Origin: the human T2T-CHM13v2.0 reference genome, Homo sapiens
Assembly: GCF_009914755.1 (NCBI RefSeq)
Contig: NC_060931.1
Strand: one strand, 5' to 3'
DNA: 64,000 nt
In this document: piece by piece, positions 16,405 through 59,269 of the stretch
Position numbering within the stretch: the stretch's first letter is position 1
Layout of the letters: the number at the start of each line of letters is the position of its first letter
The notes under the pieces: generated by a model
What the model was told of the DNA's origin: nothing
What the model saw: the letters and a program-made list of their open reading frames with translations, nothing else
Database searches by the model: none
Position numbers and translations under genes: made by a program

Positions 16405-16670
16405 CAACAGTGTTTAGCCCTGGCTATACATCAGTACAGACAATGATACTTTTAAAAATAAAAATTTCAAAGGTGCACCCACAGAGGTTCTGAATTAGTA
16501 GGACTGGCATCCAGCTCAGATATCTGGAGGTTTAAAGTACTCTCTTGGAGGTGATAATGTACTCTTTTGGAGTACTCTCTTGGAGGTGATAATGCCCCAT
16601 TATCACCTCTTGGTGATAGTACTCTCTTGGAGGTGATAATGCCCCATCATGGTTGACAATCATTGTCCTT
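16405..16670. mobile_element. MER5-like hAT-Charlie remnant carrying a templated insertion
   Basis: CACCCACAGAGGTTCTGAATTAGTAGG...GGTGATAATG...GGTTGACAATCATTG resembles MER5. Confidence 0.55.
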
Positions 16671-39261: not shown

Positions 39262-41157
39262 GAAAATGTTCCACACCAAGAGTTACTAATCATATAAATG
39301 CTATATTCCTTGGGTGGGGAGTATTCTTTTTTTTTCCTCAGAAAACGAACTGGCTTAAGAGATTAAAATAAAACACTCAGAATACACATGATCATTTCTG
39401 GTATGGAAACAGCAACTAGAAGAAGAAAAGAATTAAGTTCCCTGGGGTCAGAATGCTGATGGATTATGTTTATCTTGTTAATTATATGATGGTGATGAGC
39501 ATTATGGTTTGCATTGTCAAGAATCACTCCTTAATACTCTGTTTCAGAGGTCACAGGTGTGACCCAAGAAACTGTATTTTTCAGTCTTGACCGACAATGT
39601 TATATTTATAGCAATTTGCTATGTGTCACATGCTCTTTTAAGAATTTCACATGAATTACTTCCATTATCCCTCCTACCAACCCCGACATGTATGCTATAC
39701 CCATTTTATGGTTTAAGAAGCTGAGGCAAAGAAAAGTTAAACAACTTCCCTAAAATCACAGTGAATGGCAGAGTTACAAGTCTATATAAAGATGTGTTCT
39801 AAGTGATGACCTAGAAAAAGAAAATGGACATAATTGATGACCGTTGGCTAAAAATGATGCTTCCCTGTGCAACTCCTCTCCAAAAGGCCTTAAGTATACT
39901 GACTTCTATTAAACATAGCACTTCAGTCACACATAGACTCTGTTTTATTGAGGTTTAAGAAAAATATTCGTTTGCCTTCATTGGTTATTTATTTGGTTGC
40001 TCATTTTGGAATGTGCAGCTTTATTAGTAAAAGGGGGCTTAGTGTTCTTAATGATGTAAAGGAACAAAAAAGTAACAAATCACTGGGTTTTCCTGTCTAT
40101 TGCTGGCCAGGGATCTATTTCTCCTCACTTTTTTGCTTTGATGGGTGTGTGTCTGTGTGTGTGTTCCAAAAGACTCAAGCAGCTTCATGGGTTTATGGAG
40201 GCTCAGTAGACAGAAATAATGGAGTAAAAAAGGAAAATGTGAATTCATTCTGAAAAGAGTGTCTAAGAGAGGAGAGATGACAAAATCAGATATTTAATGT
40301 AGTGGAACAAATGCTGGGAGAGGCTGAGAACAAGACTTAGCAGGGCTGTTTTGATTTTCTCACAGGTATCTTATAATCACCCAGTGATGGTGGGATGTAA
40401 GTATGGAGGTTGAAGGCAGAGACACAGTATTGTAATGCTGCATTTTAGGATGACTTCAATCAAGCAAAATCAACTTTGTGTCAAGTCCTGCTTGGTGATA
40501 GCTATGAGTTAACAAAAAGGGCAGAAACTTTCAGCTACAGCATTTCCATTTATCAATAAATTTACATTGCTATAAAATTAATCATTGGATTGTCAACTGT
40601 TACATAGATGTTTCAAATGAAGTGTCTTTTCTTGTCAATAGGAATAGAAGCTTATAAAAACACAGGGACAGTGGTTTTTGCTCTTGTGGATGGCCTTTAA
40701 TACCTAGCAAAACCCTGGACGTCAAGAACTGAACTGAATTTAATTGACTATATTATATTATATCAATGTATCTTTAACTTGCTCTTTGTCTATCCCTGTG
40801 ACCCAAAAAGTGATGTGTCCAATTCTGGGCTATTCAATTTAAGGTTTCCACTTCTTGCTCTTTATTTGATTGAAGTTGGATGAGAGAAAATAAAGCCTAT
40901 GTAATATATAATATATTGATGTTATATTCACATACACATATGCTTTTACAAAAGCAAGTTTTGGCCTAAGCTACACTTTAGAATCCTATCATTGTACTTT
41001 TATCAAATGAGGTTAGTATCTAAAAATAATAGATACAATTATTGGCAGAAATTTCTCATTAAAATAAAGAAATAAACATCAAAGGCAGGTCTGAACACAG
41101 AAAGTTTGCATCCTAAATTTTTTTTCATGGAGATCACAAATTCCCTGAAGCATCAAA

Positions 41158-41818
41158 CATATATATATTCTGGAGATATATATATATATATATATTTTTT
41201 TTTTTTGAGATATATATATATATATTTTCTGGATATATATATATTTTCTGGATATATATATATTCTGGACATATATATATTCTGGATATATATATCCTGG
41301 ACATATATATATATATTCTGGATATATATATCCTGGACATATATATATATATATATATATTCTGGATATATATATATATATTCTGGATATATATATATAT
41401 ATTCTGGATATATATATATATATTCTGGATATATATATCCTGGACATATATATATATATATTCTGGATATATATATATATATATTCTGGATATATATATA
41501 TATTCTGGATATATATATCCTGGACATATATATATATATTCTGGATATATATATCCTGGACATATATATATATATATATATATATTCTGGATATATATAT
41601 CCTGGACATATATATATATATATATTCTGGATATATATATATTCTGGATATATATATATATTCTGGATATATATATATATATTCTGGATATATATATATA
41701 TATATTCTGGATATATATATCCTGGACATATATATATATATTCTAGATATATATATTCTGGATATACACATATTCTGAATATAGATATAGATACAGATAT
41801 AGATATAGATATATTCTG
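41158..41818. repeat. AT-rich minisatellite/VNTR: (TA)n-TTCTGGA and (TA)n-TCCTGGAC units
   Basis: About 30 units of variable (TA) length directly visible. Confidence 0.97.
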
Positions 41819-42771: not shown

Positions 42772-43103
42772 AGACTAGCCAAGTGGCTGAGACGAGTGTG
42801 GGGTGCGTGACTCTGCCTGCGCGCGCGCCAGCCCCGCAGCTCTCGCCAGAGCCTTGGGGTCGGTTCTCTCCCGCCTCTCCCGCCTCTCCCGCCCCACCCC
42901 TACAGTGTCTCGGCATCAACTAATCTTTTCCTTTTCTTTTGCAAGATCAAGGGAGAAAGAGAACCGGCAGCTGGCCTCGGACTCTAAGCGGTGCGCAGCT
43001 CCAGCCCGAGCGGATCGGCCCTGAACCCACAAAGGACTCCTCGCTCCTTCAAGCCTCCACCACCTCGCAGCCGGGGAGGCAACTGGAGCGAAACCAGCGA
43101 CAG
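42772..43103 (+). other. Putative non-coding first (5' UTR) exon of a + strand gene with a long first intron
   Basis: Strong donor CAG|GTAAGG at 43103/43104; no ATG in the interval; start inferred ~30 bp after the TATA-like element. Gene not determinable here (unverified recollection: SEMA6D distal exon 1). Confidence 0.6.
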
Positions 43104-52500: not shown

Positions 52501-54324
52501 CACATCTAAGGTCAAGGATCAGTTTTTAATGTTTTTTGTTTTGGTTTACTATACCACAAGCAGTTCTTTCAGAGGATGTCTCACTATATTATTTGGCATC
52601 TAATTCTGATAAGGCTAAGGAAAAAGAGAGAGAGAAGAAAAAGAAATAGAAGCAAGTCTCACTTCTAGTCAGTGTTCAGAAAATGAAGTCATGAAAACAG
52701 ACTTCATGGTAAAGGAATCAGTCTTAGGTGAAGTTTAGAATCTGTCTCCTGGCAACTAACCCCCTGGCTTAGCATAATTTGAATTTAAAAGTGCTTGAGC
52801 CTTCGTAGTTCCCTGGGAGCTCTTTCTAGGCACAGAGGTGGAAAAAGTCTCAGCAAGGCTTTCAGGTATGAAATTTCCAAGGCATACAATATTTATTGAT
52901 GTTTATATAACATATATGTTGCAACATTTCTGTTGATTAGGAGAACATTAAGTATCAGTAAAATGTCATTATTTGATCTCCTTCTATTTCATACTGTTAT
53001 ATCTATTTCCTTCCTCTGCAAAACAATTGCCATTACTTAACCTTAACTTCTGCATTGCAGATGCACAAACAAAAGGCCAAAGAGGCTAGATGTCCTAAGG
53101 GATAAACCTGCTTGGAATAATTCTGTTCCTGTTTACATGTCCATTGTTAACTAACCATTTATTTGCATGCCCCCATATCTTCTGGAAATCATGACTGTCT
53201 ATTGGGAAATGATAATACCAGCTAATTTCTTTTTCACAATTAATTGAAATTTTACACTCTTACATTTCAATATCCATCAACATTTTTACATACTGACACT
53301 TTTAATCAAGGATTATCTTTCACAAGGGAGCTGTAACAGGGCCCTAATTAATTAAAGTGATAATTACTCCTCTCCCTCGCAGTTTGTTAGTTACATAACA
53401 CATTCTCCAGGAAATTCACATCCTTAGCATTCCTCTTTAAATTTCTCTCATTTATAAGGAGATACCTTGGCTTCTATCTCTGTAAGAATTTACTGAAAAC
53501 TCAAATAAATTTATCATCTAGCATTAGGAAAGAAAGGCGGCCATCTTTATTTTTTAGCAAGTTTTCATATTCAAACCAAATAAAATGAGATTTTCCTATC
53601 ATTGAAATGTTCAGTTTGAACCGCAGGGGTCGTTTTCATGGAAAAAAAACAAGATTGTCAAATGACTCCCCTTTGCTATTCACCAGCTTATTCTAGCTTC
53701 TTCATCACAGTGCAAGTTCCCGTGGTCCATTCCTCTTGGATCTTTTTTTTTTTTTTCCACTTCCATTCCTCAGCTGCAATTGCTCTTGCCTCTCTGTAGT
53801 TTATCTTAGTGCGTAAGGTTTGTTACATTCTCTGGTCCGGTTTAATTCCGTTATTTGAGTAGACATGGGATCTAGAGTATTGGCAATTATTGGCAGCCTT
53901 GCTCTCTTCTCCTTTAATAGCTATTGCCCCTGTTCCTATATTTTGGCATCTCTTGGTGTCTGAGATGCACTTTCAGAAATAATTGGTGGTGACTCTAAAT
54001 TCATTCAGTTTATCCCCTAAGACTTGGGAATCCAGATCATTGAAATCCCTGCACCAAATATTGGTCAGATTTGCTAAAGGTCATTCCTGTTTGGTTTGCA
54101 TATTTTAATTATATTAGTGTGACTTACTCATTTCACTTGCAGTAAACATTTGACTACATTTTAAAATTATTATTTCTCCCAAATTCCTGAGTGTTCTTAC
54201 TTTACTTTTCTAATACATGTGAAAATGAAATTTGATACTGAGGTCAGTTATCTGAAATTCAATTAGCTTTTTTTCTGTTACTATATATAATTATTGAAAG
54301 AATTTTTTTCTTGCTGCAATAGTT

Positions 54325-55050
54325 TTTTTAATAGACTTTATTTATTAGGCCAGTTTTAATTTCACAGCAAAATTGAGAAGAACTGTTTCCACAAACCTTT
54401 TGGCCCCACACACACCTACTCCCTTCCACTATCAACCTCCCCCACCAGAGTGATACATTTGTTTCAATTGATGAACTACATTGACACATCAGTATCACCA
54501 GAGCCCATAGTTTACATTAGGGTTCCTGCTTGGTGTTTTGCATTCCCTGATGTCCTAAGGGATATCCTAAGTGTAGTACTTCTCCTTCCCCTTTTGAGTA
54601 AGGCTAAGGCTATTGCATGGCAAATTATCCAGAATGTTACTTAGTTTCATGAGGTATATTATTCTTCATCTTTGTTCATTTAACTTTTACATAAGGTCAA
54701 GTAAAGTGTATAATGAAATTATACACTTTGGACAAGTGTATAATGGTATGTAGATGCCACTGTATGCATGTAGCGTCATACGAAGTATTTCCACTGCCCT
54801 AAAAAGCTTCTGTGCCCCTTCCATCTAGTATCCTCTTTACCTTAACTCCTGACAACCACTGATTTTTTTACTGTCACTATAGTTTGCCTTTACGGACTGT
54901 CATGTAATGGAAATCATACAGTATGTAGTTTTTTAGAATGACTTCTTTCACTTAGTAACAACTTTTTTCACCTGGTGTGTAAATTCAAATCATTTCAGGT
55001 TCCTCCATGTCTTTTCATGGCTTGATAGTTCCCTTCTTTTTAGCACTGAA
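54325..55050 (-). mobile_element. L1MC-type 3' UTR fragment interrupted by templated insertions
   Basis: CAGTTTTAATTTCACAGCAAAATTGAG, TGATGAACTACATTGACACATC, CACTGCCCTAAAAA, GGTTCCTCCATGTCTTTTCATGGCTTGATAG. Confidence 0.8.
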
Positions 55051-56785
55051 TGACAGTCCATTGCATTCATTTTTCTTTGGGATTTTCATTAAATCAGTAA
55101 ATGTTTTGCCATGCTTCTTGAAGATAAATTTTAGCCAGGCATTAGAGAAATATTTTTTCTTTTTGCTATTGTATTATTTTATTCTTGTTCTGTATTTTCT
55201 CTAATCTTACATTTCCATATTCTTAAGCTCTAGAACTTTCTAAAACTGGTCACAGAACTCTTGCTCTGAATATTTTAATTCTCTTTTTCATCTTCCTTTA
55301 ACCCACCATATCCTCATTTCAGTACTTAGAAAAGAGCATTGTTTCTTAGCATCTTGTAGTTTTTAACTGTCTTTACTTTCCTGTGATTATATCTTTTACA
55401 TGATTTTTTAAATTCAGACAACAAAAATCTTTCACTTCTCTCTGTTGAAAGATTTAAGTGGTTTGTTTACCAAGTTTGGACAAGTCTTCCATTTCTCTGA
55501 GTGTGTAAATTCAAGAAGAGGAGAGGAAAAAATATCACAGGGCTATTTACTTTCCACTTCTCTTTCTCACATCATCTTCCAATCTTCAGCAGCCATGGCC
55601 ATGACGAAGCTAAGTTAAAAAACTGAAAACCTAGTTGAAAGACCATTTTATACAAGACCATACTGACCCCTAAATAACCTTTAAATGAAACACCATAAAT
55701 CTTTTTTGTTTTACCAATAGCAGACAGAGTATTCTTGTTCCTATTTGAGAAGTAAGGGAAGTCCTAAGAGGTTATTTAGTACTCCCCTGAGGTGTTTTCT
55801 CTATCCTCTGCCTTTAGGAAACTGATACTGTTTGAATATTGGTCTAGTCCCTCCAGCTATTTAGACACCGGCTTTACACACGGAAGCTAATGGAACCCAC
55901 TTATTTAACTTGACAATTTAACCTCTTCACATGGACCTACTGTTTTTCTTACACTCATACGTTATATTCAACTCCTTTATACAACAAAATTCTTTTGATA
56001 TTCTCCGGTTTCATTAAAAGAAACCTGCTCCATAAGGATGGGACTTGTATTCCCTCCTTTCCTCCTCCTCCCCTTTCTTCTCCCCTTTCTCCTCCTCCCC
56101 CTCTTCACCTTCCTTCTCCTCTTCCTTTCTCCTCCTCCTTCCCCCTCCTTCTTCTCAGCATTTAATTTGATGCCTGCCTCTATTCTTGGCACATAGCAGA
56201 GCTCAATAAATGTTTATTTAATGATACTTTATGCTAGTAGTCTGCTAAGAGTTCCAAGTTTCCTACTACCCCAATCTGCTTCTTCTGTTGGTTTCATAAT
56301 ACTGAGTTATTCCTTTCTGAAATAGCTCAAAGAAACTCTTTCTAGGTAAAATTTTTCTTTGAAAATAAAACTTCCTTTCTGATAAATGTTTCCACTTTCG
56401 AAACCAATATTTTATCTAAGCCTGAGCAAAATTTCCTCTAGGCCATGCTTATAGGTATATAGTAATATTATTTTGTTTAAGCTGAATCTAATTAATCTGA
56501 AACACATGAACTTTTAAAGAGACCAGACTTTTTTGTTTATGCATATTATATATGTTAAAAGAAATTTTAGCCAGCTAAACATTGCATATGATTTAAACAG
56601 TATATTTTTTCCATATTAGGGATGGATTTAGTACAGTTTCCTCTTTTTACTTGACCCAATGTAAAAGATAAATGAACAAAGATGAAGAATAATATACCTC
56701 ATGAAACTAAGTAACATTCTGGATAATTTGCCATGCAATAGCCTTAGCCTTACTCAAAAGAGGAAGGAGAAGTACTACACTTAGG
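54566..56785. repeat. 140-bp inverted repeat pair (54566-54705 / 56646-56785)
   Basis: Manual reverse-complement alignment: ungapped, 4 mismatches; spacer 1940 bp. Confidence 0.95.
56052..56155. repeat. Polypyrimidine (CCT/CTT)-rich low-complexity tract
   Basis: Visible. Confidence 0.85.
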
Positions 56786-59269
56786 TGCCCACTTTCATCT
56801 GCTCTCTTACGTAGGGCTTAGCGTTCCCTCCTAATAGCACTACTTCTGCCTTAACAGTTACAGTGGACCTAAGCTCCCTAGCAGTGGGGATCTTCCACTT
56901 GTTTTTACCACCTTCTAGGGAGCTTAGAAAGAGAAGGTTTTGGCATCTTTCCCTGTCTTCAGCCTCCGGTGTCTCCCAAAGGGTACTACAGTTTCAGGCA
57001 GTACAAAGTAGTGGATAAGTATATTCAGTTTGGAGACAGTTGTGTCATTGTTAGTTTACCCTTAATATCTTCACCTTCATGAATTTAAAGATTTAGTGGG
57101 GTGTCCAACATCATCTAGTCTGATGCCTTTATTTTATAGTGAGGAGACTTACTAAGGGTAAAAACAGTCGTAGCTTATTATGTGGGTGACAGTGATCAGA
57201 GGTGACAGAAACAAGACTTTGAGTCTGAACACCTTGACAACCCATTATCAGTTTCATCAACCTACAATGAATACTTCTATGGAAGGTTCCACATGATTAT
57301 TTTCAATCTTAGACTTGTATTCCTTCTAAGAAAGATATGAGGCTATAAAAACTCTTTCTTTGTTATTCTTTCTGGTTTGTGTGGGACTTTTGATTCTGTT
57401 TTTCACCTCTGCTCTTCTGTTTCCCTGATGTTTTACAAAGGGATCTTACAATTTAGTGGTAAGATTTTGTTGGAAAGGCTGGATTCAAACATGAGCGACT
57501 GTCAAAACTTTAATGACAGGTATGAAATGACGCCAACCTATCAGAACATGTGTTGGCCATTGTATTGTTCTTTGGGTCCCTGCTGAGAATCAGTCCTGGT
57601 TCAATGAGTTACTCTAATCTTGAAAGCATCTACTTTCTTGCTTTCCAGATATTCTGGAAATATAATCTAGTCATTTTTCCTACTGAATTGCCTGTAAATG
57701 ATTAGGGTTTTCATTAATCATTGCAGTATCTACTTGGAGTAATGTATTTTTAAAAAATAATGGTGATGCTCATAAAAATATATCAACTTAATCTTGCAAC
57801 TTTACATGATTGAGAATAGTTAAAAATTAATTACACAATGAGTTTGTTCCCTGGAGATGTATGACAACTTCAAAAGCTGAAGAAAGTATGATGGATGAAC
57901 TCTTTTATAAAACGACATCAAAATCTGCTTCTTTCTTTTGCTTCCCCAATTCATAAGGTCATTAGGAAACTGTTGTCACGTTGAGTGCCAAATTTGCAAA
58001 AATTGTCTGTGCAATGTCTTTAGAGTAAGAAAAAAAGACAAATTAGAAAGCTGTATTTTGATGTCATCTCTCCTAATTCTGTCAAAGTGTTTTTCTTCCA
58101 AATAGCAGATTACTTCATCCTAAAGGCTTGATAACCATAAATGTAATCAGCTTTGCCACAAATGTTTTCAAAATGAAATGCCTTTTTTTTTTTTGGTTGT
58201 CTTTTTTGCTTTGTTTTTTTATCAGGGGAAAGTGGAGAGGAGAAGCAATTGGTGGTGAGTTGAGGAACTGGTGTTTTCTGAGACACTGAGCATTTCATAG
58301 TCCAGAGAAATTCACAATTAGGTGATAGAATGTGCTCCCAGACCACTGTCACTTACACTGGGAACGTGATGTCCTCCTGGGGAATGTTGGGAAGGCACTT
58401 GCAAAGCTATTTTAAGAGGCGTTTGGAACTGTGAGAGGACAGGGAAGTATAGGAGAACATGCCAGAAGCCTTGTTTGTAAATACTGTATTCTCTTTAGGG
58501 GCTACTCAGTGGCAAAATCAAACAGATATTTTGCCAGACAATAAAGCAGCTCATCTTTACTTCCTAAGAGAATTCCACACTCAGTGAAGATCAAAACTTA
58601 CAATGAAAACATTTTAATGAATCACAGAAAATCAGTTTTTCTGTTTGTTTGGTTGTTGGTTTTGTGTCTTTCCTGGTGTGAGCTCCCCAAGCTTACAGAT
58701 GAGCTGATGCTACTAGTTGGTACCAGTAATCCATCAGAAGACAGATGAAACTTTGTAAGAGAAACTGTATTTGATAAAGCTGAAAGCTAACTTGCTTCAA
58801 TCTTTTTAGAAAATGTTTTATTCATCTTCATAGAGACCCAAAGGAAAAATAATTTGGACAGGGATGGCAATTCTGTGACAGTTTATCATCCCTCCTTAGC
58901 AATGGACCAAAGAGAGAAACAAATAGGAAGTCAAAAATTTCCTCGTTTCCTGGTCTGTGACAACCCCAAAGATTCCAAAGAGAGTTGGAGAATAGCTTGC
59001 TTGCAAAAGTGAGCAGGTCTCACATACTCCCTTCAACTCCATCTCCTAAAAAGTAATTTAAATTTCAGGGGTATCATCTGTATAGCCACATAAAGAGGAC
59101 ATTGTCCATATTTAAAACTGAGAAATATCCATCATTCATATCAGTAACATTTTCATCTTATTATTCTGCTTTTTAAACTTACATTTCTGTCCCCCTGCAG
59201 TATTCAGTCAGTTGTATACCAAGAACGTGTAAGTGCTTTATAAGTGACAGATATTAATGCGCTAGAAAT

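What the first reader, a model, noticed from the sequence alone, without database searches (positions are those of the whole stretch)
54546..54729. Patchwork templated insertion: one repair event copying from three nearby templates
Seen: an L1MC remnant breaks after ...GCATTC (54545) and resumes at TTTGGACAAG (~54727). The insert contains (a) GATGTCCTAAGGGATA (54549-54564), identical to 53089-53104, 1.46 kb upstream in direct orientation; (b) 140 bp (54566-54705) that is the reverse complement of 56646-56785 with 4 mismatches and begins with CCTAAG, a hexamer also inside piece (a); (c) AAGTGTATAATG (54704-54715), a copy of the right flank 54734-54745, which then folds back as a perfect 12-bp hairpin AAAGTGTATAAT-GAA-ATTATACACTTT (54703-54729). 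There is no TSD or poly-A, so this is not retrotransposition. Established: microhomology-primed multi-template and snap-back insertions are signatures of polymerase theta end joining and MMBIR/FoSTeS. Inference: a germline break was repaired with several template switches reaching both sides within ~2 kb; ~3% divergence suggests a primate-lineage date.
Basis: partly seen in the sequence, partly recalled or inferred. Interest (0 to 1): 0.8.

Follow-up and report, generated by a model that had tools for sequence, protein, structure and literature searches.

The report
Patchwork templated insertion in old L1
A 177-base insertion inside an ancient LINE-1 fragment in a CHRM2 intron was stitched together from copies of three nearby sequences, a well-preserved but ordinary scar of error-prone, template-switching DNA repair or replication in the primate germline.

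Summary
Other copies of the flanking L1 3' region run straight across the site: 26 of 28 have 2 nt, and 2 have 3 nt, where this window has 177 nt (54550-54726).

174 of the 177 nt are copies of local DNA:
- 15-16 nt from 1.46 kb upstream, in direct orientation. This 16-mer occurs only twice in the 3.1-Gb genome, both times here.
- 140 nt inverted from 1.94 kb downstream, 136/140 identical, only two copies genome-wide.
- A direct and an inverted copy of the right flank, forming a perfect 12-bp hairpin.

Junctions show 0-3 nt of microhomology. There is no target-site duplication and no poly-A.

Best reading: one event in which a single growing 3' end switched templates several times. The strand pattern fits extension of the right-hand 3' tail of a resected break, with every template lying on one of the two 3' tails. 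A stalled-fork (FoSTeS/MMBIR-type) origin fits nearly as well. The 2.9% divergence (95% CI 0.8-7.3%) suggests an ape or catarrhine date.

The primate empty site and human polymorphism could not be checked with these tools. Multi-template germline insertions are already described, so this is a new member of a known kind, unusual mainly for its kilobase template distances.

The parts
54386..54549 (+). Left part of the old LINE-1 3' region. It probably ends at G 54549; the last 4 nt (CCTG) are ambiguous between L1 and insert.
   Evidence: 38 other genomic copies match query 7-170 (window 54386-54549) at 78-88% identity; alignment of 28 copies; 1 of 28 reads CCCTG at 54545-54549.
54550..54564 (+). 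Patch 1: direct copy of 53090-53104. G 54549 is shared with the L1, giving 1 nt of junction overlap and completing the 16-mer.
   Evidence: exact match; the 16-mer occurs only twice in the genome.
54565..54565 (.). One unassigned nucleotide (T) between patches 1 and 2. It lies inside the 8-bp palindrome GGATATCC (54560-54567).
54566..54705 (+). Patch 2: 140-nt inverted copy of 56646-56785, 136/140 identical.
   Evidence: two copies genome-wide; the only such local pair in the window.
54704..54715 (+). Patch 3a: direct copy of right-flank L1 sequence 54734-54745. It overlaps patch 2 by AA (54704-54705).
54716..54717 (.). Two unassigned nucleotides (AA). Together with G 54715 they form the hairpin loop GAA.
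54718..54729 (+). Patch 3b: inverted copy of 54703-54714 (and of flank 54734-54744), forming a perfect 12-bp hairpin. TTT 54727-54729 is shared with the resuming L1.
   Evidence: (I19); dG -8.9 kcal/mol, z -3.9; rarity of such hairpins.
54727..54891 (+). Right part of the same LINE-1 3' region, resuming at TTTGGACAAG.
   Evidence: other copies match query 348-512. In three copies both flanks match, with only 6-8 nt between them..
53089..53104 (+). Template 1, in single-copy sequence 1.46 kb upstream of the insertion site.
   Evidence: a 501-nt query around it finds only itself.
56646..56785 (+). Template 2, in single-copy sequence 1.94 kb downstream, copied in inverted orientation.
54734..54745 (+). 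Template 3: native L1 sequence 5-18 nt right of the junction.
   Evidence: The motif is in the L1 column of the other copies.

Best explanation
One mutational event in the primate germline replaced about 2 nt of an old L1 3' region with 177 nt. The new DNA was made by a single growing 3' end that repeatedly came off its template and re-primed at 0-3 nt microhomologies on nearby single-stranded DNA.

Preferred sub-model (inferred):
1. A double-strand break formed between 54549 and 54727.
2. It was resected at least 1.46 kb to the left and at least 2.06 kb to the right.
3. The 3' tail of the right end (bottom strand, ending ...GTCCAAA-3') snapped back on itself through AA/TT and copied 9 nt.
4. 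It added 2-3 untemplated nt and made a second hairpin copy of 11-12 nt.
5. It folded back on its own strand 1.9 kb away, primed on TTT/AAA at 56646-56648, and copied 140 nt towards 56785.
6. It dissociated, added 1 nt, and copied 15-16 nt from the other end's 3' tail (top strand, 53104 down to 53089).
7. It was joined to the left end through a single shared base.

In this order every template is a strand that 5'-to-3' resection leaves single-stranded.

Odds: one-event serial template switching about 0.8 (this is the confidence given for this entry, slightly discounted). Within that, a resected-break, end-joining type origin (Pol theta-like snap-back plus a longer fold-back synthesis) about 0.45, against about 0.35 for a stalled-fork origin.
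For: Shown:
- Empty-site proxy: 26 of 28 other L1 copies have 2 nt, and 2 of 28 have 3 nt, where the window has 177 nt.
- 174 of 177 inserted nt are assigned to three local templates. The pieces abut with 1, 0 and 2 unassigned nt.
- The 16-mer is unique to this locus in 3.1 Gb.
- The 140-mer has only two copies, and its source lies in single-copy DNA. The source of the 16-mer is also single-copy.
- Junction overlaps are G (1 nt), AA/AAA (2-3 nt) and TT/TTT (2-3 nt).
- There are no mismatches in the short patches (16 nt, plus two 12-nt copies of the flank motif) and 4 in the 140-nt patch. This is compatible with all patches having the same age.

Template choice looks guided by short similarities:
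- CCTAAG ends the 140-nt tract and recurs inside the 16-mer. The null rate is 530 of 20000.
- GGTCAAGT near the start of the tract matches the break-proximal GGACAAGT at 7 of 8. The null rate is 249 of 20000. Both tests are post hoc.

Inferred from strand logic: written on the bottom strand, the patch order (flank hairpins, then the top-sense sequence 56646 to 56785, then the bottom-sense sequence 53104 to 53089) needs as templates only the right tail itself and the left tail (layout).

Precedents:
- Pol theta alternates between untemplated extension, snap-back in cis and copying in trans within one product (Kent 2016, passages).
- TMEJ leaves 3-30 bp locally templated insertions after aborted synthesis, especially in AT-rich, microhomology-poor DNA (Carvajal-Garcia 2020, passages). 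The insert here is 33% GC.
- In yeast, a resected end folds back on an imperfect inverted microhomology and synthesises 10 to over 150 bp. The displaced strand is then joined to the other end with 0-5 bp of microhomology (Yu 2024, abstract and section 15).
Against: - No orthologous empty site was seen. One event rather than several, the date, and fixation in humans are all inferred.
- Template distances of 1.46 and 1.94 kb and a 140-nt tract lie far outside what was read for TMEJ: templated insertions of 3-30 bp, microhomology search within about 15 bp, and a median insert of 7 bp.
- The junction between the 140-nt tract and the 16-mer has no microhomology.
- The final join rests on a single nucleotide.
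- The local hairpin part is explained equally well by top-strand synthesis.
- A stalled fork with helicase-polymerase uncoupling would expose the same strands, so strand logic does not separate a break from a fork.
- The CCTAAG recurrence is not used as a simple junction microhomology, so its role is unexplained.
Confidence: 0.75

Rival explanations
1. Replicative template switching at a stalled or collapsed fork (FoSTeS/MMBIR type), not end joining of a two-ended break. A nascent bottom strand growing leftwards stalled at 54727 and snapped back on itself. It then copied 140 nt of its own extruded strand 1.9 kb behind the fork and 16 nt of the unwound leading-strand template 1.46 kb ahead. Finally it returned to within 2 nt of where it left.
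For: - The pattern is switch-and-return with only about 2 nt lost.
- Template distances are in the kilobase range and the inverted tract is 140 nt.
- Germline MMBIR-type templated insertions in humans can use up to five templates, and about 100 per person are 25 bp or longer (Osia 2021, passages).
- Short template switches create hairpins and inverted copies in human-chimp comparisons (Loytynoja and Goldman 2017, passages).
- The same strands are single-stranded in this scenario as in the break scenario.
Against: - Nothing in the sequence requires a fork.
- Two successive short snap-backs with 2-3 untemplated nt are the described behaviour of end-joining polymerases.
- Copying its own strand 1.9 kb behind the fork requires the nascent strand to be extruded.
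- The MMB-TI detector that was read about only looks within 100 bp. Kilobase distances are therefore no better documented for this pathway in what I read.
Confidence: 0.35
2. Several independent mutations happened to accumulate at one spot. For example, an older 140-bp inverted insertion was later decorated by a short template-switch hairpin and a separate 16-bp insertion.
For: - No outgroup sequence was available to show that the pieces arrived together.
- Short template-switch hairpins are common on their own.
- The window has a second complex hairpin cluster at 16.5 kb.
Against: - All patches lie within one discontinuity of the L1 and abut with 0-2 unassigned nt.
- The hairpin arm uses the last AAA of the 140-nt tract.
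- The short patches have no mismatches.
- Three hits on one site within 180 bp, in a window with no other such local duplication, is unparsimonious.
Confidence: 0.08
3. RNA-templated patch: class 2 templated sequence insertion, or endonuclease-independent L1 reverse transcription. Under this rival, pieces of CHRM2 intronic pre-mRNA were reverse-transcribed into a break.
For: - Both distant templates lie in the same CHRM2 intron (hub annotation).
- Class 2 insertions lack a target-site duplication and poly-A, and they show microhomology and untemplated nucleotides (Onozawa and Aplan 2016, passages).
Against: - The two distant patches have opposite orientations relative to the transcript. One growing end copying sense RNA cannot make both.
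- No antisense transcript is annotated over 53-57 kb.
- The flank-derived hairpin is a DNA snap-back signature.
- From recall rather than any call: CHRM2 is not a germline-expressed gene.
Confidence: 0.03
4. Not a templated insertion at all. The alternatives are a dispersed repeat or transposon inserted twice, chance matches, or an assembly artefact.
For: The genome search tool states that its counts are lower bounds.
Against: - The 140-mer and the 16-mer each have two copies genome-wide.
- There are no terminal repeats, no target-site duplication and no poly-A.
- 0 of 200 shuffles and 0 of 20 shuffles reproduce the hairpin.
- A 2.9% divergence between the copies is not what a mis-assembly gives.
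Confidence: 0.01

Closest known systems
Polymerase theta-mediated end joining with locally templated insertions (TINS), and SD-MMEJ snap-back synthesis. Sources: Kent 2016 eLife, passages. Carvajal-Garcia 2020 PNAS, passages. Yu and McVey 2010 and Khodaverdian 2017, seen only as listing and abstract starts.
   Same: - Copies of flanking sequence in direct and inverted orientation.
- Alternating templated and 1-3 nt untemplated stretches within one product.
- 1-3 nt microhomologies and little loss of flanking DNA.
- An AT-rich context.
- The flank-derived 11-12 nt patches, 5-18 nt from the junction, fit well.
   Different: - TINS are described as 3-30 bp, with microhomology search within about 15 bp.
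- Here one tract is 140 nt, and two templates lie 1.46 and 1.94 kb away.
- POLQ dependence cannot be tested from sequence.
Local fold-back inversions at resected double-strand breaks in yeast (Yu et al. 2024 NAR; abstract and section 15).
   Same: - A resected 3' tail pairs with an imperfect inverted similarity on its own strand.
- It is extended by 10 to over 150 nt.
- The displaced strand is joined to the other end with 0-5 bp of microhomology.
- Here the break-proximal 8 nt match the start of the copied tract at 7 of 8, the tract is 140 nt, and the final join shares 1 nt.
   Different: - The loop is about 1.9 kb instead of 41 nt.
- There are additional snap-back patches and a patch from the other tail.
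- Priming is at TTT, 3 nt beside the similar octamer, rather than through it.
- The organism and the polymerase (Pol delta in yeast) are not transferable.
MMBIR-type templated insertions (MMB-TI), including complex multi-template germline events (Osia et al. 2021 NAR; passages).
   Same: - An inverted copy of a nearby template, flanked by microhomology.
- Several templates in one insertion.
- Present as a germline or evolutionary variant without gross rearrangement.
   Different: - The published detector requires the template within 100 bp. Here the distances are 1.46 and 1.94 kb.
- One patch is direct, not inverted.
Short-range template-switch mutations, four-point model (Loytynoja and Goldman 2017 Genome Res; passages).
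   Same: - A switch-and-return that writes a reverse-complement copy and creates a perfect hairpin de novo.
- Seen as lineage-specific changes in apes.
   Different: - That model explicitly leaves out long-range switches and multiple successive rounds of switching.
- This event has at least four switches and kilobase range.
Templated sequence insertion polymorphisms, class 2 (Onozawa and Aplan 2016; passages).
   Same: - An insertion at a presumed break, without a target-site duplication or poly-A.
- Microhomology and untemplated nucleotides at the junctions.
   Different: - Those patches come from distant loci and are proposed to be RNA-derived.
- Here the templates are local, of mixed orientation, and include the break's own flank.

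Membership tests
TMEJ / SD-MMEJ templated insertion | The inserted sequence is identical, or reverse-complementary, to DNA flanking the junction. | tested here: met
   Patches 3a and 3b copy flank 54734-54745. Patches 1 and 2 copy DNA 1.46 and 1.94 kb away.
TMEJ / SD-MMEJ templated insertion | Short microhomology at the template-switch junctions. | tested here: inconclusive
   Overlaps are 1, 0, 2-3, 0 and 2-3 nt at the five junctions. Two junctions instead have 1-2 unassigned nt.
TMEJ / SD-MMEJ templated insertion | Insert of about 3-30 bp, with templates and microhomologies within tens of bp of the break (as read). | tested here: not met
   Met by the hairpin patches only. The 140-nt tract and the 1.46 and 1.94 kb distances fall outside this range.
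TMEJ / SD-MMEJ templated insertion | Dependence on POLQ. | not testable with these tools
   This needs genetics at an induced break.
MMBIR templated insertion (MMB-TI) | An insertion of at least 10 bp that is an inverted copy of a nearby template. | tested here: met
   140 nt, 97% identical, inverted.
MMBIR templated insertion (MMB-TI) | Template within 100 bp of the insertion (operational criterion of MMBSearch). | tested here: not met
   There are 1940 nt between the arms.
MMBIR templated insertion (MMB-TI) | Complex class: several templates in one insertion. | tested here: met
   Three templates and four patches.
MMBIR templated insertion (MMB-TI) | Arises during break-induced or restarted replication. 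| not testable with these tools
   The sequence does not distinguish a fork from a two-ended break.
L1-mediated retrotransposition / class 1 templated insertion | Target-site duplication, poly-A tail, and a TTTT/A-type target. | tested here: not met
   No poly-A. No duplicated target; about 2 nt of the target are lost instead.
Dispersed repeat / transposable element insertion | Many genomic copies. | tested here: not met
   The 140-mer has 2 copies and the 16-mer has 2 copies.
LINE-1 (identity of the interrupted host element) | A dispersed family whose copies carry ORF2 upstream, in the same orientation. | tested here: met
   2031 first-look candidates, 40 scored, 78-88% identity. In the one copy tested (L027), an ORF 507 bp upstream matches LINE-1 ORF2p residues 1155-1231, E = 1.6e-17. 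Pfam gave no hit for that ORF. The subfamily name L1MC was not tested.

The most novel reading that the evidence does not exclude
The strand pattern would mean that both kilobase-long 3' tails of one resected germline break served as templates: the broken end's own tail 1.9 kb back (fold-back in cis, 140 nt) and the opposite tail 1.46 kb back (in trans, 16 nt). That would be a fossil record of how far resection and template search reach in the primate germline. It would also be an example of a class that current detectors cannot see, because they search within about 15-100 bp. Such events could be an under-counted source of local inverted duplications, and so of long intronic double-stranded RNA. 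Here the two arms are 136/140 complementary, lie 1.94 kb apart in a CHRM2 intron, and have a predicted RNA duplex energy of -229 kcal/mol.
Probability: 0.3. Interest if true: 0.5.

Novelty: new member of a known kind. Interest (0 to 1): 0.3.

Why it matters
On its own this is a neutral intronic scar, and no function is suggested. There is no Rfam match in 52-58 kb, and no exon or annotated element overlaps it.

Its value is as an unusually legible example:
- The old L1 gives a built-in empty-site proxy.
- Nearly every inserted base can be traced to a template.
- The order and orientation of the patches allow a strand-specific reconstruction.

If kilobase-range, tail-templated patches like this are common, catalogues built with short search windows under-count templated insertions. 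Such events would also be a route to new inverted repeats and hairpins in introns.

Tried and rejected
- **Possible fourth template.** TTCCCTGATGT (54543-54553) equals 57421-57431 and spans the left junction. I rejected it. The 11-mer occurs 2771 times in the genome. In addition, 123 of 386 random 30-mers from 44-60 kb have an equally good local match within 3.5 kb.
- **I20.** The 12-mer 55390-55401 is complementary to 56659-56670, inside the source. I judged it a chance match. About 3 exact 12-mer pairs are expected in 7 kb; this is my own arithmetic, not a tool result.
- **Pfam on read-through translations upstream of L1 copies.** A stop-free ORF from L027 then gave 0 Pfam families, but it matched LINE-1 ORF2p among solved structures.
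- **Rfam on 52-58 kb.** No match.
- **Literature on this locus.** 0 papers hold both 'CHRM2' and 'templated insertion'. I ran no other search for this locus.
- **The CCTAAG hexamer as a junction microhomology.** It would predict a product without the intervening GGGATAT, and that is not what is seen. Its role stays unexplained.
- **Polarising the four mismatches (synthesis errors versus later substitutions).** Not possible without outgroups.
- **Primate orthologues, human polymorphism and the L1 subfamily consensus.** None of these is available in the tools.
Full report
**What is there**

On the + strand the region reads as follows:
- L1 sequence up to ...TTTTGCATTCCCTG (ending at 54549).
- ATGTCCTAAGGGATA (54550-54564).
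- T (54565).
- A 140-nt tract (54566-54705).
- GTGTATAATG (54706-54715).
- AA (54716-54717).
- ATTATACAC (54718-54726).
- L1 sequence again from TTTGGACAAG (54727).

- **The 16-mer.** 54549-54564 equals 53089-53104.
- **The 140-mer.** 54566-54705 is the reverse complement of 56646-56785 at 136/140. The mismatches are at 54590, 54683, 54693 and 54694, and none is in a CpG.
- **The flank copies.** 54704-54715 equals 54734-54745. 54703-54714 pairs perfectly with 54718-54729 across the loop GAA.

**More than chance**

- The 16-mer occurs twice in the whole 3.117-Gb assembly, both times here. The reversed control gave 0 forward and 1 reverse.
- The 140-mer has two copies.
- A 901-nt query around its source finds only itself plus the insert. 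A 501-nt query around the 16-mer's source finds only itself. Both sources are therefore single-copy DNA, not a repeat family. The tool warns that its counts are lower bounds.
- In a self-comparison of the 64-kb window, this is the only local pair (within 6 kb, at least 90% identity, at least 30 bp) among 19 non-self pairs.
- The hairpin folds at -8.9 kcal/mol as DNA, z = -3.9, with 0 of 200 shuffles as good.
- The window has 11 perfect hairpins of at least 12 bp with 3-6 nt loops. Nine are (AT)n, so only two are of complex sequence. None of 20 shuffled windows had any.

**The host element and the empty site**

- A 521-nt query across the site found 2031 first-look candidates, of which 40 were scored.
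- 38 other genomic copies match the left flank at 78-88% identity. These matches end at window 54535-54549, mostly 54544-54545.
- Where the start of the right flank is matched, it resumes at 54727-54729.
- In three copies (on contigs C23, C15 and C13) both flanks match, with only 6-8 nt between them, against 183 nt in the window.
- I aligned 28 copies (loci L004-L031, all that were given loci) with the window. In the columns of window 54550-54726, 26 of 28 have two residues (14 of them GG) and 2 of 28 have three.
- At window 54545-54549 (CCCTG) the copies read CTATG in 14 of 28, and L009 reads CCCTG exactly. The L1 therefore most likely continues to 54549, and the event replaced about 2 nt by 177 nt.
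- The family is LINE-1. In the one copy tested (L027), an ORF 507 bp upstream in the same orientation matches LINE-1 ORF2p residues 1155-1231 of 1274, E = 1.6e-17. Pfam gave nothing for that ORF. The subfamily name L1MC was not tested.
- There is no poly-A and no target-site duplication.

**Accounting for the insert**

174 of the 177 nt are assigned to templates. The exceptions are T 54565 and AA 54716-54717. The junction overlaps are:
- G 54549, between the L1 and the 16-mer.
- None between the 16-mer and the 140-mer.
- AA 54704-54705 between the 140-mer and the direct flank copy, or AAA if the hairpin arm is counted.
- None between the direct copy and the inverted copy.
- TT or TTT at 54727-54729, between the inverted copy and the resuming L1.

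Two short similarities sit at the template choices:
- CCTAAG ends the 140-nt tract and recurs inside the 16-mer.
- GGTCAAGT, 4-11 nt from the other end of the tract, matches the break-proximal GGACAAGT at 7 of 8.

Random pairs of window segments of the same sizes share such features in 530 of 20000 and 249 of 20000 trials. These tests were chosen after seeing the data, so I treat them as suggestive only. The junction between patches 1 and 2 also forms the 8-bp palindrome GGATATCC (54560-54567). I cannot explain it.

**Mechanism**

The facts are contiguous patches, opposite orientations, flank-derived snap-back copies, a few untemplated bases, microhomologies of 0-3 nt, and almost no loss of target. 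Together they are the described signature of a 3' end that repeatedly dissociates and re-primes.

Written on the bottom strand, 5' to 3', the product is:
- the native flank ending ...GTCCAAA;
- GTGTATAAT, complementary to the flank's own ATTATACAC, with AA pairing to TT across a 4-nt loop;
- TT;
- CATTATACAC followed by TTT;
- the top-sense sequence of 56649-56785;
- A;
- the bottom-sense sequence of 53104-53090;
- C, then AGGGAATGC... of the left L1.

If this strand was the one being extended, every template is a strand that 5'-to-3' resection leaves single-stranded. The templates are the right tail itself (locally, and 1.9 kb back, which needs at least 2.06 kb of resection) and the left tail (1.46 kb back). 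The opposite polarity, top-strand extension from the left end, would need the two resected 5' strands as templates. That is why I prefer the right-end model. This is inference.

The local hairpin part fits either polarity.

A stalled leftward-moving fork with an extruded nascent strand and an unwound leading-strand template exposes the same strands. A replicative origin (FoSTeS/MMBIR type) is therefore nearly as good.

**Comparison with what is known**

- Kent et al. 2016 (passages): Pol theta alternates between untemplated addition, snap-back in cis and copying in trans within single products. The median insert is 7 bp.
- Carvajal-Garcia et al. 2020 (passages): TMEJ leaves templated insertions of 3-30 bp. 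It searches for microhomology within about 15 bp, with repeated aborted synthesis in AT-rich, microhomology-poor DNA.
- Yu et al. 2024 (abstract and section 15): a resected yeast end folds back on an imperfect 10-bp inverted similarity with a 41-nt loop and synthesises 10 to over 150 bp. The displaced strand is joined to the other end with 0-5 bp of microhomology. This is the nearest mechanistic analogue for the 140-nt tract.
- Osia et al. 2021 (passages): about 100 germline MMBIR-type templated insertions of at least 25 bp per person. Some use up to five templates. Their detector searches only within 100 bp.
- Loytynoja and Goldman 2017 (passages): short template switches create hairpins. Their model explicitly excludes long-range and multi-round switching.
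- Onozawa and Aplan 2016 (passages): class 2 templated insertions lack a target-site duplication and poly-A, but they are distant and proposed to be RNA-derived.

The present case is a member of this general kind. The flank-derived patches are typical. The kilobase template distances and the 140-nt tract lie outside the ranges I read for TMEJ and outside the MMB-TI search window. No paper in the library holds both 'CHRM2' and 'templated insertion'. I ran no other search for this locus.

**Rivals**

- **Separate events at one site** cannot be excluded without outgroups. It is unparsimonious, because the pieces abut within 0-2 nt inside one L1 discontinuity and the hairpin arm uses the last bases of the 140-nt tract.
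- **An RNA-templated patch** is unlikely. The two distant patches have opposite orientation relative to the CHRM2 transcript, so a single growing end copying sense RNA cannot make both.
- **A transposon, chance matches or an assembly error** are excluded, for practical purposes, by the copy numbers and controls above.
- **A candidate fourth template** (an 11-mer at 57421-57431 spanning the left junction) is not above background. It has 2771 genomic copies, and 123 of 386 random 30-mers do as well.

**Date**

- 4 differences in 140 nt give 2.9% (95% Poisson interval 0.8-7.3%). Counting the tandem pair as one event gives 2.1% (0.4-6.3%).
- Paralogue divergence since a duplication accumulates like divergence between two species that split at that time. 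Against recalled, untested figures of about 1.2% for human-chimpanzee, about 3% for human-orangutan and about 6% for human-macaque, the event falls somewhere between the African-ape ancestor and early catarrhines.
- If some differences are synthesis errors, the event is younger. Three of the four lie within 23 nt of the 54705 end, which is the start of synthesis in the preferred model.
- The L1 host is far older. Its flanks are 65-79% identical to the other copies across the junction alignment.

**Consequences**

- The site lies in a CHRM2 intron about 11 kb downstream of the exon at 42946-43103 (hub annotation). No annotated element overlaps it, and there is no Rfam match in 52-58 kb.
- The event created a 140-bp, 97% inverted repeat spaced 1.94 kb apart on the transcribed strand. 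The predicted RNA duplex energy is -229 kcal/mol. Whether that RNA duplex forms, or is edited, was not tested.

**Verdict**

It is a clean, instructive, but not categorically new example of a multi-template templated insertion. The decisive missing piece is the primate empty site.

Noticed in passing
window 16540-16650: This is the window's only other complex-sequence perfect 12-bp hairpin: GAGGTGATAATG, loop ccc, CATTATCACCTC (16583-16594 and 16598-16609). It sits among three direct copies of a roughly 22-nt unit ending in GGAGGTGATAATG. It looks like another small duplication plus snap-back or template-switch patch.
   Followed up: partly
window 41151-41768: An AT-rich tandem array with a period of about 20 nt. 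TATCCAGAAT recurs at least 17 times on the minus strand between (AT)n runs. It produces all nine low-complexity hairpins found.
   Followed up: no
window 54560-54567: The junction between the 16-mer patch and the 140-nt patch forms the perfect 8-bp palindrome GGATATCC, around the single unassigned T. CCTAAG lies on both sides of it. No simple switch model I tried produces this arrangement.
   Followed up: partly
window 54683-54694: Three of the four differences between the insert and its source cluster within 12 nt, including the tandem pair at 54693-54694 (AA vs TG). They lie 12-23 nt from the end of the tract where synthesis would have started. They could be synthesis errors or later substitutions. 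This cannot be polarised without outgroups.
   Followed up: no
window 54386-54891: This L1 3' fragment has thousands of genomic relatives (2031 first-look candidates). It is nevertheless absent from the hub's list of NCBI-masked stretches of 100 nt or more. An unmasked stretch here is therefore not necessarily unique sequence.
   Followed up: partly
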